Assembly (NCBI RefSeq): GCF_902652985.1
Contig: NC_047015.1
Coordinates: forward strand, 17,484,001 to 17,548,000
Direction: 5' to 3'
Origin: Pecten maximus
Taxonomy: Eukaryota
DNA length: 64,000 bases
Part shown: positions 1 to 52,400 of the stretch, one piece after another
Position numbering within the stretch: the stretch's first letter is position 1
Layout: every line of letters starts with the position of its first letter
Program-made: the position numbers

Positions 1-3000
1 ATTTTTTATACTGATATTGGGAACCATGCATTTTGAAACTGTTGATTAATTTGAACGTATTTTATTGTTTATTTTTAACAACTTATAAAAGCCCTCTCCA
101 CAGATATATATTTCCAAGATCGTGATAGCGACACAGTATACTTATAATGATCATAAAGAAAAAAAGCAAAGAAGAATGACAGGAAGAAAGACATATCTAG
201 AGATCTAAGAGTAAGATGAATGTTGCCACATTAGGATATACTACAAAGTTGGGTTCATAAACTCACAAACACAATCTATTAATGGCAAATTGTGGTGTGC
301 TATTTATCTATTTCAGATATTGAATATAAATGTCATTTTTGCATTCATTGCTAGAATATATATAAGTTACATTTTACTTGGGAGGCCCTATGACCTTTCA
401 AGTGGAAACACGTATACTAGATCAGTTTACGCTGAATACAATATATCAAGTAAAACGTATGCTTGACTTGTACGGTGCTATTCAATGCTAGCTTCTAGCA
501 AAGTAATCTATAGTTCTGTTCATTATCAAACTTAAACTAATAAACTACCATTAATGTTTACCAAGTGTATATATATTCTATGTTCATTAATCTTTATCAT
601 TTGTTTTTTCTTTAACATATATGTGATTTGAATATTATTATGTCATGCTCTTCATTTTGAACAAAATAAAGGCAATAATAATGAAATTAATAATAAGAAG
701 AATCCACGTTCTTAAAAAGGAAAAACTTTTCAACGGTACAGTGATGGTTGGCCCGATACCCCGACATGATACGCACCAAGACTGTATTTATTCAACTTCA
801 TTGTCAACACAGCAGAATTTTAATTACACTGACCATATCTTTTTAGAGCAACACAACACTGATCATACATCTGTAGAGTTTTAATTACTCTGACTATATA
901 CCTCTGTAGAATTTTAACAACAAACCTGTAACACTGATCATACATCTGTAGATTTTTAATTACTCTGACTATATCTCTGTAGATTTTTAATTACTCTGAC
1001 TATATCTCTGTAGAATTTTAATTACTCTGACTATATCTCTGTAGATTTTTAATTACTCTGACTATATCTCTGTAGATTTTTAATTACTCTGACTATATCT
1101 CTGTAGAATTTTAAGTACTCTGACTATATCTCTGTAGAACTTTAATTACTCTGACTACATCTCTGTAGAATTTTTAATTACTCTGACTATATCTGTGTAG
1201 AACTTTAAGTACTCTGACTATATCTCTGTAGAATTTTAATTACTCTGACTATATTTCGGTAGAATTTTAATTACTCTGACTATATCTCTGTAGATTTTTA
1301 ATTACTCTGACTATATCTCTGTAGACTTTTAAGTACTCTGACTATATCTCTGTAGATTTTTAATTACTCTGACTATACCTCTGTAGAATTTTAATTACTC
1401 TGACTATATATCTATGTAAAACTTTAAGTACTCTGACTACATCTCTGTAGAATTTTTAATTACTCTGACTACATCTCTGTAGAATTTTAATTACTCTGAC
1501 TATATCTCTGTAGAGTTTTAATTACTCTGACTATATCTCTGTAGATTTTTAATTACTCTGACTATATCTCTGTAGAACTTTAATTACTCTGACTACATCT
1601 CTGTAGAATTTTTAATTACTCTGACTACATCTCTGTAGAATTTTAATTACTCTGACTATATCTCTGTAGAATTTTAATTACTCTGACTATATCTCTGTAG
1701 AATTTTAATTACTCTGACTATATCTCTGTAGAACTTTAATTACTCTGACTACATCTCTGTAGAATTTTTAATTACTCTGACTATATCTGTGTAGAACTTT
1801 AATTACTCTGACTACATCTCTGTAGAATTTTAATTACTCTGACTATATCTCTGTAGAATTTTAATTACTCTGACTATATCTCTGTAGAGTTTTAACAACA
1901 AACCTGTAACACTGACCATACCTCTGTAAGTTTTCACTTCACTGAACATACGTATGAAGAGGTTTTACTACACTGACCATACTTCTGTAAAGGTTTCACT
2001 TCACTGAACATACATCTGTACAGTTTTCGCTATAATGGCCATACCTCAGTAAAGTTTTTACTTCACTGAACATACCTCTGTATCGTTAGACGGGTGTAAC
2101 CGTGCTGGCTTAGTGAATGTATTGTTGTGTATCATACCAACGTAAAAGTATTGTAAAATGTAATTCAGTAACTGTATATCACTTTAGGATGATTGTTTTA
2201 ATTTGAACAGTGTATGGATATTGGCTTTGAATAGTGTTGAGGAGTGTAGAAGATGAAGATGTGTGCTTTACTGTCAATCCTATCATTGTATTATTGTATT
2301 TCATATTGACCTCTTGCCGCGCACAATATAAAGTCCGCCTGAGTGAAATAAATAAATTGAATTGAATTTGTACAGTTTTCACTACAATGACCATACTTCT
2401 GTAGATTTTTAACTTCATTGACCATAACTAAATCGTAACTAAACAGACCATACTTCTGTAAGTTTTGATAACTAAACTGACCATACTTCTGTAAGTTTTG
2501 ATAACTAAACAGACCATACTTCTGTAAGTTTTGATAACTAAACTGACCATACTTCTGTAAGTTTTGATAACTAAACAGACCATACTTCTGTAAGTTTTGA
2601 TAACTAAACAGACCATACTTCTGTAAGTTTTGATAACTAAACTGACCATACTTCTGTAAGTTTTGATAACTAAACAGACCATACTTCTGTAAGTTTTGAT
2701 AACTAAACTGACCATACTTCTGTAAGTTTTGATAACTAAACAGACCATACTTCTGTAAGTTTTGATAACTAAACTGACCATACTTCTGTAAGTTTTGATA
2801 ACTAAACAGACCATACTTCTGTAAGTTTTGATAACTAAACTGACCATACTTCTGTAAGTTTTGATAACTAAACAGACCATACTTCTGTAAGTTTTGATAA
2901 CTAAACAGACCATACCTCTGTACATTTTGATATCTAAACAGACCATACCTCTGTAAAGTTTTTCGTTTCTTCCTTTGTTCTGACAACATTTACAGTTTGA

Positions 3001-49400: not shown

Positions 49401-52400
49401 TTATGTAGGTAAGGATAGGCCATTATGGTCGGCTAACCATACCTCGTTATGAAGGTAAGGATAGGACATTATAGTCGGCTAACCATACCTCGTTATGTAG
49501 TTAAGGATAGGTCATTATAGTCGGCTAACCATACCTCGTTATGTAGGTAAGGATAAGTAATTATAGTCGGCTAACCATACCTCGTTATGTAGGTAAGGAT
49601 AGGTCAGTATAGTCGGCTAACCATACCTCGTTATGTAGGTAAGGATAGGACATTATAGTCGGCTAACCATACCTCGTCATTATAGTCGGCTAACCATACC
49701 TCGTTATGTAGGTAAGGATAGGTCATGATAGTCGGCTAACCATACCTCGTTATGTAGGTAAGGATAGGTCATTATAGTCGGCTAACCATACCTCGTTATG
49801 TAGGTAAGGATAGGTCATTATAGTCGGCTAACCATACCTCGTTATGTAGGTAAGGATAGGTCATTATAGTCGGCTAACCACACCTCGTTATGTAGGTAAG
49901 GATAGGTCATTATAGTCGGCTAACCATACCTCGTTATGTAGGTAAGGATAGGTCATTATAGTCGGCTAACCACACCTCGTTATGTAGGTAAGGATAGGTC
50001 ATTATAATCGGCTAACCATACCTCGTTATGTAGGTAAGGATAGGCCATTATAGTCGGCTAACCATACCTCGTTATGTAGGTAAGGATAGGTCATTATAAT
50101 CGGCTAACCATACCTCGTTATGTAGGTAAGGATAGGTCATTATAGTCGGCTAACCATACCTCGTTATGTAGGTACGGATAGGACATTATAGTCGGCTAAC
50201 CATACCTCGTTATGTAGATCAGGATAGGTCATTAAAGTCGACTAACCATACCTCGTTATGTAGGTAAGGATAGGTCATTATAGTCGGCTAACCATACCTC
50301 GTTATGTAGGTAAGGATAGGTCATTATAGTCGGCTAACCATACCTCGTTATGTAGGTAAGGATAGGTCATTATAGTCGGCTAACCATACCTCGTTATGTA
50401 GCTAAGGATAGGTCATTATAGTCGGCTAACCATACCTCGTTATGTAGGTAAGTATAAGTCATTTTGAAATGTTTCTGTCGACATTCAGAAAAGGTTAAAT
50501 TAATTTTGATTGAGAAAAAAAAAGAAAAAGAAAAAAACTTTCAAAGTATACACTACATATGCATGTGCTCATTTGCTTGAGACACAATATGTTAATATGT
50601 CATCGAAGCACCGAGTCGAAGAAGAACTTCATTAACAAAATATTGCCATGGTCTGCCGACCGCATGATCTCATCTAATTTCTGGGTCTTGTGCAAGGCTG
50701 TCTACTTTCATTTTGTTATCACGTGGGAACGATGTAGCCGGAAGTCGGCCTACACAACATGTACAGTTGGCAAAATGATAGCCGGTTACAGCGCTACTGT
50801 CCAGACAATTCTGGGAACATTGTTTACATGGGGACTCACAGCAGCTGGAGCAGGACTGGTGTTTGTGTTCCAGAGCAATCAGGTACGTTATTGCGTCTGA
50901 AATCGGCACAGGTGTGTTTACTATACTGTATTACTGGTGTGTGTTACGTTACGTATCTTCTTCTTTAATGATGAAACCTGCCATACTATGGCAAGCCGTT
51001 TTAACATTTAATCCCATTTCCTCTTAAGGGGATGTTTTTTCACTTAAGTGAAAAAATAATTTCACTTAAGTGAAAAAAACATAATGCAAATAATTTATTC
51101 ACCTTAAGGTGAAAAGAATTTCACTTAAGTGAAATTCTTTTTCACTTAAGTGAAATAAAACATAATGCAAATAAATGTTAATATCCCTTAAGACAAAAAG
51201 AATTTCACTTAAGTGAAAAAAAATTATGTGCAGACATAATGCAAAATACTTGTCCCTTAAGTGAAATTCTTTTCATCTAATGTAAATAAAACTGACCATA
51301 TGTCCATAAAGTCACTCTGTCCTCCTATCCACCCCATGGTATAATGGAATGAACCCCTTGGACCTGTCAACTAAGAAACAGCTTGAGTAAACTTTAACTT
51401 TGATACGTTCTTATCACTTATCATAATGGAAATAAATAAAACATATATTTAATGGAATTAAAACATAAGTGAAAGTAAATCATATGGGAAATAGTATTGA
51501 TTTTACTAACAACAAATGAAGTAGAGAAAAGGTCTCGAATTGGTCAGAAATTAAACACCCAATGCTTGGTCAATAGATGGACTAGTCCTTATCTGATTCA
51601 TGAGAGTGGGTGTCCTATCTACGCAACAGTAGCATTTGCATTATGTTTTATTTCACTTAAGTGAAAAAGATTTTCCCTTAAGATGAATAAAATTTATTTC
51701 ACTTAAGTGAAATTCTTTTTCACTTAAGTGAAATTCTTTTTCACTTAAGTGAAATAAAACATAATGCAAAAAAAAGTCTTTTAACCTTAAGGTAAAAAGT
51801 ATTTCACTTAAGTGAAATGAATTTGAAGCATATTTTGCCTTAAGAGGAAATGGGATTAAATGTTAAAACGGCTTGCCATAAACCCGTCAAAAATGACGAT
51901 TACGGTCACTGGATCGTTGGATGCTTTTAAAAGAAATAAAAAGTGCGGGGATTTGGGTACAGTGAGAGGGTTATTTTTTTTTTATTAATTTTTTAGTGGA
52001 AACTATAGGATAAAAACATCTGCGTTAACGAAGCTGTGGGCGACGGACGGACGATATCTAGCAAATGTCCGAAAGCAGTGTAGGCAGGGTATGGACATCG
52101 TCGGATACCCACGGCTAATTGCACTACGCTTACACTACAATTAACACTGGGAGATAAGTATAATTTAGCGTCCGACGATATGTAATACCATGAACAACAA
52201 AATGTATTAAGACACATTGTATTTTACAATAATATTCATATAAGAGACTGTATTTTACAATAATATTCATATCAGAGACTTGGTAACGCTATCCACTGAC
52301 TGACTGAGACTACACTCGCTTTATGGATATTGACAGCTTGGCTATCATATTAACATACTAGGTGGCGCGGAACTGGAAATACGTCAATTTAATTTTAAAA

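What the first reader, a model, noticed from the sequence alone, without database searches (positions are those of the whole stretch)
810..50453. Recurring theme: splice-signal-anchored minisatellites as a candidate undescribed system
Three unrelated arrays in one window are built on splice signals in the sense orientation of the host or neighbouring gene: a donor (2440-2960), an acceptor (42389-42544) and a whole intron-like unit (47778-50453). Weaker TAG|GTAG junctions also occur in the 36-bp unit (sense in the right arm) and in the 60-bp unit. Inference: in this lineage tandem amplification is either seeded near splice junctions (co-transcriptional R-loops or pausing) or retained preferentially when the spliceosome can remove it. 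That could be a route to intron growth, intron gain and VNTR-controlled isoforms.
Basis: inference. Interest (0 to 1): 0.7.

Follow-up and report, generated by a model that had tools for sequence, protein, structure and literature searches.

The report
Splice-junction minisatellites in a scallop
In this repeat-crowded stretch of king scallop DNA, two short tandem arrays are copies of a real exon-intron junction, a kind of repeat already described in lancelets and in human genes, and there is no wider splice-signal system behind the other arrays.

Summary
The window is Pecten maximus DNA, not human. It holds 22 minisatellite arrays, 35% of its bases.

- The 33-bp array at 2436-2962 copies, on the minus strand, the last 14 nt of an adhesion-GPCR exon, its donor GAG|GTATGG and 19 nt of intron. 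Diverged relatives run on to about 810.
- The 39-bp x4 array at 42388-42544 copies the acceptor and the first 23 nt of RNF181 exon 5, in frame.

The 46-bp array touches no detected exon and carries donor-like words on both strands.

There is no general theme. Junctions lie in arrays less often than intronic positions do (2 of 36 against 260 of 1000). Arrays are denser in DNA where I found no gene. Sense strands show no bias, and motif excess is no better than scrambled controls.

The kind is already described: amphioxus "mirages" and the human F7 IVS7 VNTR.

Verdict: a new member of a known kind, best explained by random local duplication filtered by splicing tolerance.

The parts
2949..3050 (-). 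Exon 9 of an adhesion GPCR with a pentraxin domain (NCBI name: 'cadherin EGF LAG seven-pass G-type receptor 1-like'). It encodes ..AILQEKKW..ETKNFTE.
   Evidence: tblastn of Pecten maximus protein P0241 aa 442-477 gives 97% identity. Acceptor TTTTTCAG| and donor GAG|GTATGG were fixed. The exon end ..KNFTE|VII is conserved in Mizuhopecten P0242.
2436..2962 (-). 33-bp x16 junction-spanning ('mirage'-type) minisatellite. Unit = last 14 nt of exon 9 + donor (GT at 2948-2947) + 19 nt of intron 9. Copies 1 and 2 carry GAG|GTATGG; the other 14 carry GAG changed to GAA.
   Evidence: TRF. Per-copy table: 2 of 16 copies score 8.1 bits, 14 of 16 score 4.1 bits. Alignment A2. The junction 24-mer has 15 nearby copies.
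1909..2082 (-). Diverged relatives (31-bp period) of the same junction unit, deeper in intron 9. Some still carry strong donor words (GAG|GTATGT, GAG|GTATGG).
810..1895 (-). Oldest-looking relatives of the junction unit (31-bp period; TRF 945-1895, degenerate copies down to about 810). The GT at the homologous position is lost in 27 of 31 anchored copies.
   Evidence: All 40 matches to the core word lie on the minus strand at 800-3060 and none elsewhere on either strand.
41994..42109 (+). RNF181-like exon 4 (RING finger, ..[34 protein letters not shown]), donor AAG|GTGATG.
   Evidence: tblastn of P0124, P0125 and P0128; junctions fixed.
42388..42544 (+). 39-bp x4 junction-spanning minisatellite. 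Unit = last 16 nt of intron 4 (TGATATTTATTTACAG) + first 23 nt of exon 5. Four equal acceptors (6.9 bits), with exon-like starts at 42404, 42443, 42482 and 42521.
   Evidence: All four starts are in frame without a stop. The junction 24-mer has 3 nearby copies.
42521..42595 (+). RNF181-like exon 5 as read from the last acceptor ([25 protein letters not shown]), donor AAA|GTAAGT.
   Evidence: 92% to Ylistrum balloti P0124. 7 of 8 homologs examined have exactly one NSCPxCR; 1 of 8 did not match the pattern.
47778..50463 (.). 46-bp array of about 58 copies, lying between RNF181 (stop at 42982) and the ZIP11 ATG (50775). Not shown to be anchored on a junction.
   Evidence: Donor-like words are kept on both strands (46 AGGTAAGG on plus, 51 GAGGTATGG on minus).
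50775..50882 (+). ZIP11 (SLC39A11)-like exon 1 with the start codon, donor CAG|GTACGT. The 46-bp array ends 312 bp upstream.
   Evidence: tblastn of Pecten maximus P0002, 100% identity.

Best explanation
The window is king scallop (Pecten maximus) DNA in which short local tandem duplications have grown into minisatellites almost everywhere: 22 arrays, 35% of the bases.

Two founding duplications happened to straddle an exon-intron boundary:
1. The donor of adhesion-GPCR exon 9, on the minus strand.
2. The acceptor of RNF181 exon 5, on the plus strand.

Each copied unit carries its own splice signal. The copy next to the exon can therefore still make the normal mRNA, and the other copies stay in the intron as decoy sites. 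Such arrays escape the selection that removes repeats from exons and from other junctions.

The result is intron growth and a set of decoy or alternative sites. At the GPCR donor, about 2.1 kb of intron 9 descends from the 33-bp junction unit, and the decoy donors look progressively weakened (GAG to GAA, then GT to AT). At RNF181 the array is young (98% matches) and offers four equal, in-frame acceptors.

This is the 'mirage' or F7-IVS7 kind of minisatellite. The third array (46 bp) and the other arrays are ordinary minisatellites whose splice-like words are incidental.

SHOWN: the anatomy, the exon models, that the exons are older than the arrays, and the lack of any general enrichment.
INFERRED: the slippage or unequal-exchange origin, which splice site is used, and selection on the decoys.
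For: ORGANISM AND GENES
- ZIP11 exons match P. maximus P0002. 3 of 5 matched stretches are 100% identical, and the other two differ only outside the exon bounds.
- The GPCR exons match P. maximus P0241.
- All 36 junctions of the 20 mapped exons are GT/AG.

DONOR ARRAY
- The exon 9 end and donor form the first unit.
- Ten representative copies from 2963 down to 957 align at 84% mean column identity with 13 invariant columns.
- All 40 core-word matches lie at 800-3060 on the minus strand, and none elsewhere.
- The exon end KNFTE|VII is conserved in Mizuhopecten, so the exon came first.
- The annotated P. maximus protein continues ..NFTE|VIIRT, which corresponds to use of the first donor.
- Reading on into the intron hits TAG after 4 codons.

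ACCEPTOR ARRAY
- Four units of 39 nt, each with ATATTTATTTACAG|G.
- 7 of 8 homologs carry a single NSCPxCR.
- No database protein matched the repeated form.

NO GENERAL THEME
- Junctions in arrays: 2 of 36. Random intronic 24-mers with a nearby copy: 260 of 1000. Odds ratio 0.17, p = 0.003.
- Arrays cover 14,500 of 27,857 bases where I found no gene, against 7,692 of 36,143 genic bases.
- Donor-like scores at p <= 0.05 in 4 of 44 unit-strands, acceptor-like in 2 of 44, with 2.2 expected for each.
- Sense against antisense: 5 higher, 5 lower, 1 tie among 11 genic arrays.

PRECEDENT
- PMC3087553 (section 16 read), PMC3902484 (one passage), PMC1557585 (abstract and introduction read).
Against: - Under a seed model the two straddling arrays exceed expectation: 0.40-0.42 expected, P(>=2) = 0.06-0.07. 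Within genic DNA only, 0.35 expected and P = 0.049. A real preference for junctions is therefore not excluded by one window.
- Donor-like scores of the units are shifted upward. Fisher combined p = 0.006, and 0.046 after removing the junction-derived families. The true donor matrix was the most extreme of the 8 donor-type matrices tried.
- Copy 2 of the donor array keeps a decoy donor identical to the real one only 33 nt downstream. That does not fit simple selection against decoys.
- Which splice sites are used is not shown: there are no RNA data, and the cluster look-up that might have shown the P. maximus RNF181 model was unavailable.
- 'Intergenic' means only that I found no gene there: 10 long ORFs had no Pfam match and there was no Rfam match.
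- The splice matrices are approximate consensus frequencies recalled from memory.
Confidence: 0.75

Rival explanations
1. In this lineage tandem amplification is started preferentially at splice junctions (co-transcriptional R-loops, pausing) or is systematically kept when it can be spliced out, giving a distinct class of 'splice-signal-anchored' minisatellites that recurs across unrelated arrays.
For: - Two arrays in 64 kb straddle real junctions in sense, against 0.35-0.42 expected (P = 0.05-0.07).
- Donor-like scores are shifted upward (Fisher 0.006).
- The amphioxus authors also suspected 'a more general phenomenon' (PMC3087553).
Against: - Junctions are depleted in arrays relative to intronic DNA (2 of 36 against 26%, p = 0.003).
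- Half of the arrays (11 of 22), and the denser coverage (52% against 21%), lie where no gene was found.
- No sense-strand bias: 5 higher, 5 lower, 1 tie.
- 2 of 9 scrambled or reversed control matrices also reach Fisher p < 0.05.
- The third array has donor-like words on both strands and no adjoining exon.
- The window was picked because of these arrays, so the a posteriori P values are optimistic.
Confidence: 0.12
2. The arrays are internal tandem repeats carried by mobile elements (MITE- or Helentron-like, as reported for oysters) that inserted next to exons. On this reading the splice-like words are part of the element.
For: - The 54-bp array at 25456-26447 is flanked by 43-bp inverted repeats (88% identity).
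- A dispersed repeat of about 70 bp lies beside both the 31-bp and the 46-bp arrays.
- Oyster arrays borne by Helentron elements are in print (PMC7492417; search listing and start of abstract only).
Against: - The units of the two junction arrays contain the host gene's own conserved coding sequence (..NFTE and VNSCPLCR).
- Their core word occurs nowhere else in the window, so they arose in place.
- The reading remains possible for other arrays, including the 46-bp one.
Confidence: 0.05
3. The RNF181 acceptor array works as a copy-number-dependent isoform switch. Use of an upstream acceptor adds 13, 26 or 39 in-frame residues (..CR[DY][10 protein letters not shown]..) after the last zinc-binding pair of the RING finger. 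This adds to the best explanation rather than excluding it.
For: - Four acceptors of equal score, 39 nt apart, all in frame and free of stops.
- In human 6-16 and CBS, the sites nearest the authentic one in such arrays are used (PMC1557585 introduction).
Against: - No protein with the repeated unit was found among the candidates; the best full-unit match was 47% identical.
- 7 of 8 homologs have a single unit.
- The chance of a 39-nt unit being in frame and free of stops is roughly 0.18 (my arithmetic, no call).
- Amphioxus mirages were reported not to disturb splicing.
Confidence: 0.1
4. Assembly artefact: long-read errors or collapsed or expanded repeats create the arrays or their copy numbers.
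For: Arrays of near-identical units are hard to assemble. Copy numbers could not be checked here.
Against: - The copies carry ordered variants, for example alternating TCTG and TCAG units in the 33-bp array.
- There is a gradient of divergence over 2 kb. Mis-assembly does not produce these.
Confidence: 0.03

Closest known systems
Amphioxus 'mirage' minisatellites (Adh3, troponin C, globins BflGb6 and BflGb9, PGBD5)
   Same: - Tandem, minisatellite-like duplications that span an intron-exon boundary.
- Both 5' and 3' boundaries occur.
- Many units keep AG/GT signals.
- Reported not to disturb normal splicing.
- Proposed as a route to intron gain and growth.
(PMC3087553 section 16; PMC3902484 passage.)
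Both scallop arrays fit this anatomy: units of 33 and 39 bp lie within the 10-160 bp range quoted there.
   Different: - A different phylum (a mollusc, not a cephalochordate).
- Splicing outcome and length polymorphism are not tested here.
- The scallop donor array has diverged into three blocks covering about 2.1 kb, with decayed donor words.
- The original Adh3 paper was not read. It is known to me only as reference 68 of PMC3087553.
Human F7 intron 7 37-bp VNTR, and similar arrays in interferon-inducible 6-16, CBS IVS13, LAMIN B2 and PDGF
   Same: - The first monomer spans the exon-intron boundary (F7: 4 bp of exon + 33 bp of intron).
- The authentic donor is followed by repeated pseudo-donors.
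- In F7 only the most upstream site is used, through 5'-to-3' scanning.
(PMC1557585 abstract and introduction.)
The GPCR exon 9 array has the same layout: 14 nt of exon + 19 nt of intron.
   Different: - In F7 the pseudo-sites are strictly identical to the real site. Here only copy 2 is, and 14 of 16 copies have A at position -1.
- No functional data exist for the scallop.
Intron gain by tandem duplication across an AG|GT proto-splice site (model attributed to Rogers in PMC3087553)
   Same: The RNF181 unit starts with GT (GTAAAC) and ends with AG (TTTACAG). Neighbouring copies therefore form GT...AG segments created by duplication.
   Different: - The duplicated AG|GT is a junction that already existed, so an old intron is lengthened and no new intron position is created.
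- A 39-nt segment is probably too short to be spliced alone (my knowledge, not tested).
Tandem arrays of bivalves carried by mobile elements (Helentron-associated satellite-like repeats of Crassostrea gigas)
   Same: Short dispersed arrays in a bivalve genome. The 54-bp array here has inverted-repeat flanks.
   Different: - The two junction arrays are made of host exon sequence and are local.
- The paper was seen only as a search listing and the start of its abstract (PMC7492417).

Membership tests
Junction-spanning ('mirage' / F7-IVS7-type) minisatellite | Head-to-tail array of units of minisatellite size | tested here: met
   33 bp x15.9 (96% matches) and 39 bp x4.0 (98% matches), TRF.
Junction-spanning ('mirage' / F7-IVS7-type) minisatellite | The unit contains exon bases, the splice signal and intron bases of a real junction of the host gene, in sense | tested here: met
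   - GPCR exon 9 donor: 14 nt exon + GT + intron, minus strand.
- RNF181 exon 5 acceptor: 16 nt intron + 23 nt exon.
- Both junction 24-mers have nearby copies, 15 and 3.
- NOT met for the 46-bp array at 47778-50463.
Junction-spanning ('mirage' / F7-IVS7-type) minisatellite | The exon is older than the array, so the array derives from the junction and not the reverse | tested here: met
   KNFTE|VII is conserved in Mizuhopecten and the position is alignable in 7 further molluscan homologs. NSCPxCR occurs once in 7 of 8 RNF181 homologs.
Junction-spanning ('mirage' / F7-IVS7-type) minisatellite | The authentic site next to the exon is used and the mRNA is normal | not testable with these tools
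   Indirect only. The annotated P. maximus protein P0241 reads ..NFTE|VIIRT, and no repeated RNF181 form was found.
Junction-spanning ('mirage' / F7-IVS7-type) minisatellite | Copy-number polymorphism or instability between alleles | not testable with these tools
   Only one haplotype is in hand, and no collection of eukaryotic genomes or reads was available.
Intron gain by tandem duplication across AG|GT | A duplication inside an exon creates a new intron position | tested here: not met
   Both arrays lengthen introns that already separate the exons in the homology models.
Tandem arrays of bivalves borne by mobile elements | Array embedded in an element with terminal structures and dispersed copies | tested here: not met
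   - For the two junction arrays: all 40 core-word matches are local and there are no shared flanks.
- Inconclusive for the 54-bp array (43-bp inverted flanks) and the 46-bp array (70-bp dispersed repeat beside it).
   2 of 36 junctions against 260 of 1000 intronic positions, odds ratio 0.17, p = 0.003. The seed model gives 2 seen against 0.40-0.42 expected, P = 0.06-0.07, which is inconclusive. One window only.
   Among 11 genic arrays the sense strand has the better donor-like word in 5, the worse in 5, with 1 tie. The 46-bp unit has strong words on both strands.

The most novel reading that the evidence does not exclude
Junction-spanning ('mirage') amplification is not an oddity of amphioxus. 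It would be a frequent route of intron growth, and of in-frame splice isoforms that depend on copy number, in highly heterozygous, minisatellite-rich marine invertebrates such as scallops. Array seeds would truly favour splice junctions, for example through slippage coupled to transcription or pausing. The GPCR intron 9 tract would then be a time series of how decoy donors are disarmed: GAG to GAA, then GT to AT.
Probability: 0.12. Interest if true: 0.6.

Novelty: new member of a known kind. Interest (0 to 1): 0.3.

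Why it matters
- It shows that junction-spanning minisatellites occur in a mollusc. They have been described in lancelets and in a handful of human genes. My searches found no bivalve report: one search listed 5 papers, none relevant by title or abstract, and one search listed 18, none on molluscs and junction repeats.
- The adhesion-GPCR locus is a clear case of intron growth. About 2.1 kb descends from one 33-bp junction unit, with decoy donors at several stages of decay.
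- That locus could serve as a natural test of donor choice by 5'-to-3' scanning, since copy 2 carries a donor identical to the real one 33 nt downstream.
- The RNF181 locus offers four identical in-frame acceptors. It is a simple, testable case for whether copy number alters splicing.
- For the scan, the finding is a caution. In a window where a third of the bases are minisatellite, splice-like words in repeat units are expected by chance. Only comparison with exon models separates real junction copies from look-alikes.

Tried and rejected
1. A general excess of splice-like words in repeat units.
   - Method: approximate donor and acceptor matrices (recalled) scored on 44 unit-strands, against shuffles and against non-repeat segments.
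   - Result: donor scores are shifted (Fisher 0.006), but 2 of 9 scrambled or reversed control matrices also reach p < 0.05.
   - Outcome: rejected as robust evidence.

2. The plus-strand GTAAGT of the 33-bp unit as the 'donor'. Rejected: it is antisense to the host gene and at chance level.

3. The exon end derived from a pre-existing repeat (exonisation). Rejected, because the exon end is conserved.

4. An exon ending at 47777 in front of the 46-bp array.
   - The upstream reading frame lies in a dispersed repeat whose second copy has no preserved frame.
   - There is no homology support.
   - Left unresolved, judged unlikely.

5. Shared flanks or mobile-element structure for all arrays. Found only for the 54-bp array, plus one dispersed 70-bp repeat.

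6. Further genes.
   - 10 long ORFs at 21-53 kb gave no Pfam match.
   - Three ORFs at 58.1-59.2 kb that looked to me like LINE fragments, and the ORF at 6424-6711, gave none either.
   - No Rfam family and no tRNA.

7. The cluster look-up for the P. maximus RNF181, ZIP11 and GPCR models was unavailable and was not pursued by any other route.

8. One search failed because my search phrase was too long. It was re-sent correctly.

9. No structure, complex or representative-library job was run, because none bore on the question.

Full report
WHAT THE WINDOW IS

The window has no N, about 38% G+C and a CpG observed/expected ratio of 0.69. It is not human. It is king scallop (Pecten maximus) DNA, or something indistinguishable from it at the exon level.

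- A ZIP11 exon finds 'zinc transporter ZIP11-like [Pecten maximus]' (P0002) at 98%.
- tblastn of P0002 back onto the window gives 100% identity in 3 of 5 exon matches. The other two differ only in residues outside the exon bounds.
- A pentraxin exon finds 'cadherin EGF LAG seven-pass G-type receptor 1-like [Pecten maximus]' (P0241) at 98%, with nine exon matches.

Exons were searched one at a time as contiguous genomic stretches. I built and searched no joined spliced model.

REPEAT LANDSCAPE

TRF reports 81 rows that collapse into 39 clusters covering 23,520 bases (36.8%). Of these, 22 are arrays of at least 100 bp with a period of at least 10 and at least 3 copies. Together they cover 22,192 bases. 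The published genome paper lists 'simple repeats' as 0.99% of the genome and all repeats as 27% (PMC7191990, passages). This window is therefore far richer in tandem arrays than that table suggests.

GENE MAP

| Gene | Strand | Exons in the window |
|---|---|---|
| Adhesion GPCR | minus | 17906-17780, 17504-17382, 17073-16768, 16530-16213, 7340-7275, 6626-6507, 6085-5979, 3459-3301, 3050-2949. The rest of the protein lies beyond the left end. |
| RNF181-like | plus | 37972-38051, 38780-38830, 41497-41585, 41994-42109, 42521-42595, 42923-42982 |
| ZIP11-like | plus | 50775-50882, 54978-55016, 62816-62983, 63111-63216, 63726-63908 |

All 36 junctions (19 donors, 17 acceptors) are GT/AG. With my approximate, recalled consensus matrices, real donors score a median of 7.7 bits (minimum 2.9) and real acceptors a median of 6.9 (minimum 1.7).

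In 17907-37971 and 42983-50774 I found no gene. Ten long ORFs gave no Pfam match, and there was no Rfam family and no tRNA.

THE DONOR ARRAY (2436-2962)

The host gene runs on the minus strand, so the plus-strand GTAAGT in the unit is antisense. It is also unremarkable (4.8 bits, p = 0.13).

On the minus strand, exon 9 ends ..GAAACGAAAAACTTTACAGAG|GTATGGTCTGTTTAG. The annotated protein continues ..ETKNFTE|VIIRT. The last 14 exon bases, the donor and 19 intron bases make up the outermost 33-bp unit of the array.

Among the 16 copies of this array, read away from the exon:
- Copy 1 is the real junction and copy 2 carries the identical donor word (8.1 bits).
- The other 14 copies have GAA|GTATGG (4.1 bits).

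Further into the intron:
- The 1909-2082 block keeps variants such as GAG|GTATGT (8.6 bits).
- In the 810-1895 tract, 27 of 31 anchored copies have lost the GT. Of these, 18 read GAG|ATATAG, 7 read GAG|ATGTAG and 2 read GAT|ATAGTC. The other 4 keep weak GT words.

Ten representative copies from 2963 down to 957 align at 84% mean column identity. All 40 matches to the core word lie at 800-3060 on the minus strand, and there are none elsewhere on either strand. So about 2.1 kb of intron 9 descends from this one junction unit.

The exon end is conserved in Mizuhopecten (..IKNFTEVII) and is alignable in seven further molluscan homologs. The exon is therefore the source, not the product. Use of a decoy donor would read GTA TGG TCT GTT TAG, a stop after four codons.

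THE ACCEPTOR ARRAY (42388-42544)

There are four units of 39 nt. Each is 16 nt of intron 4 (TGATATTTATTTACAG; copy 2 has TTA for TGA) plus the first 23 nt of exon 5 (GTAAACAGTTGTCCTCTATGTCG, encoding VNSCPLCR).

- All four acceptors score 6.9 bits.
- Exon-like starts at 42404, 42443, 42482 and 42521 all keep the frame without a stop. Upstream starts would add 13-residue blocks.
- Homologs align only to the last unit. 7 of 8 examined carry NSCPxCR exactly once, and the eighth did not match my pattern.
- A search with the whole four-unit stretch found no protein containing the repeat.
- One unnamed database protein (P0123) reads through a related junction with a single unit and a different preceding sequence. 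This is a weak hint that a relative lacks the duplication.

The array is young (98% matches).

THE 46-BP ARRAY (47778-50463)

- It lies between the RNF181 stop (42982) and the ZIP11 start codon (50775), and ends 312 bp before the latter.
- No homology-backed exon touches it.
- AGGTAAGG occurs 46 times on the plus strand and GAGGTATGG 51 times on the minus strand. The unit scores 9.8 bits on plus and 8.1 on minus. The 'intron-like' look is therefore not strand-specific.
- The sequence just upstream (47647-47711) is an 81% inverted copy of 702-770, a dispersed repeat whose second copy does not keep the reading frame.
- Just upstream of the ATG I read CACGTG and CCGGAAGT in the output. These resemble E-box and ETS sites (names recalled), so the promoter may lie downstream of the array.

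I rate this array as not shown to be junction-anchored.

IS THERE A THEME?

Five tests bear on this.

1. Junctions inside any TRF cluster: 2 of 36. Array coverage of intronic DNA is 25.9%. Junction 24-mers with a nearby copy: 2 of 36. Random intronic 24-mers with a nearby copy: 260 of 1000. Odds ratio 0.17, Fisher p = 0.003. Junctions are depleted in arrays, as expected if most repeats at junctions are harmful.

2. Seed model. A founding duplication one unit long is dropped at random. Expected straddlers are 0.40-0.42 for 18-20 families, against 2 observed. Poisson P(>=2) = 0.06-0.07. Within genic DNA only, 0.35 are expected and P = 0.049. The thresholds were chosen after looking, and the window was picked for these arrays.

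3. Context. There are 11 arrays covering 14,500 of 27,857 bases (52%) where I found no gene, against 11 arrays covering 7,692 of 36,143 genic bases (21%). Array formation here does not need splicing.

4. Motifs.
   - Donor-like p <= 0.05 in 4 of 44 unit-strands and acceptor-like in 2 of 44, with 2.2 expected for each.
   - Combined donor p = 0.006, and 0.046 without the junction-derived families.
   - Nine scrambled or reversed control matrices gave 0.019-0.58, two of them below 0.05. The test is lenient, and the residue is carried largely by the 46-bp unit on both strands.

5. Strand. Among 11 genic arrays the sense strand has the better donor-like word in 5, the worse in 5, with 1 tie.

The weak TAG|GTAG words in the 36-bp and 60/77-bp units are at chance level.

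MECHANISM

- Shown: two arrays are in-place copies of conserved exon ends together with their splice signals. One has lengthened its intron by about 2 kb.
- Inferred (origin): the arrays began as short local duplications through slippage or unequal exchange, like their neighbours.
- Inferred (persistence): they persist because the copy next to the exon still splices correctly. This holds for the F7 intron 7 array, where only the most upstream of identical donors is used (PMC1557585). It also holds for amphioxus mirages, which were reported not to disturb splicing.
- Inferred (decoys): the weakened decoy donors reflect drift or selection.
- For RNF181 the canonical protein needs the last acceptor. 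Whether upstream acceptors are used is open.

COMPARISON WITH WHAT IS KNOWN

The anatomy matches amphioxus 'mirages'. [quoted passage not shown]

It also matches the human arrays whose first monomer spans an exon-intron boundary: F7, 6-16, CBS, LAMIN B2 and PDGF (PMC1557585 introduction).

I did not read the original Adh3 paper. The additional files of the globin paper were not seen because supplements are closed, and they may hold unit alignments relevant to the comparison.

I found no report for bivalves. One search listed 5 papers, none relevant by listing. One search listed 18, none on molluscan junction repeats.

VERDICT

This is a new member of a known kind. The 'undescribed system' reading is not supported.

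LIMITS

- One window only.
- No eukaryotic genome, read or transcript collection was available.
- The splice matrices were recalled.
- 'Intergenic' rests on failing to find genes.

Noticed in passing
29779-31100 and 31152-33904: The same 36-bp unit forms two arrays in opposite orientation (about 37 and 76 copies) separated by 51 bp. This is a large imperfect palindrome of minisatellites. The unit-against-unit match is 100% over 94 bp on the opposite strand.
   Followed up: partly
25350-25389 and 26497-26539, flanking 25456-26447: The 54-bp array is bracketed by 43-bp inverted repeats (88% identity), and a related 41-bp piece lies at 24994-25034. The layout looks like a small mobile element carrying an internal tandem array.
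   Followed up: partly
702-770 and 47647-47711: A dispersed repeat of about 70 bp (81% identity, opposite strands) lies beside both the 31-bp array and the 46-bp array. No tRNA or Rfam match explains it.
   Followed up: partly
19142-20733 and 21595-22378: Two arrays of the same 27-bp unit in the same orientation, 861 bp apart. A local inverted repeat lies at about 21434-21588 next to the second array.
   Followed up: no
whole window: 35% of the window is minisatellite in 22 arrays. The P. maximus genome paper lists simple repeats as 0.99% of the genome. Either this region is exceptional or such arrays are hidden among the 'unclassified' repeats.
   Followed up: partly
2436-2962: Units alternate between ..GGTCTGTTTAG and ..GGTCAGTTTAG, suggesting a 66-bp higher-order period. 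The TCAG variant creates an extra donor-like word, ATG|GTCAGT, in 6 copies.
   Followed up: partly
58140-59231: ORFs on both strands look to me like C-terminal fragments of a LINE-type reverse transcriptase (a recalled resemblance), but none matched Pfam at E <= 0.01.
   Followed up: partly
37363-37439 and 61856-61882: A perfect (CT)38 microsatellite lies about 530 bp upstream of the RNF181 start codon. A run of 27 G lies in ZIP11 intron 2.
   Followed up: no
50720-50745: CACGTG and CCGGAAGT lie 30-55 bp upstream of the ZIP11 ATG (read in the output). They resemble E-box and ETS sites (names recalled) and may mark the promoter.
   Followed up: no
17907-37971: The GPCR gene (minus strand) and RNF181 (plus strand) are divergent. 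The 20-kb spacer between them is 51% minisatellite, and no gene was detected in it.
   Followed up: partly
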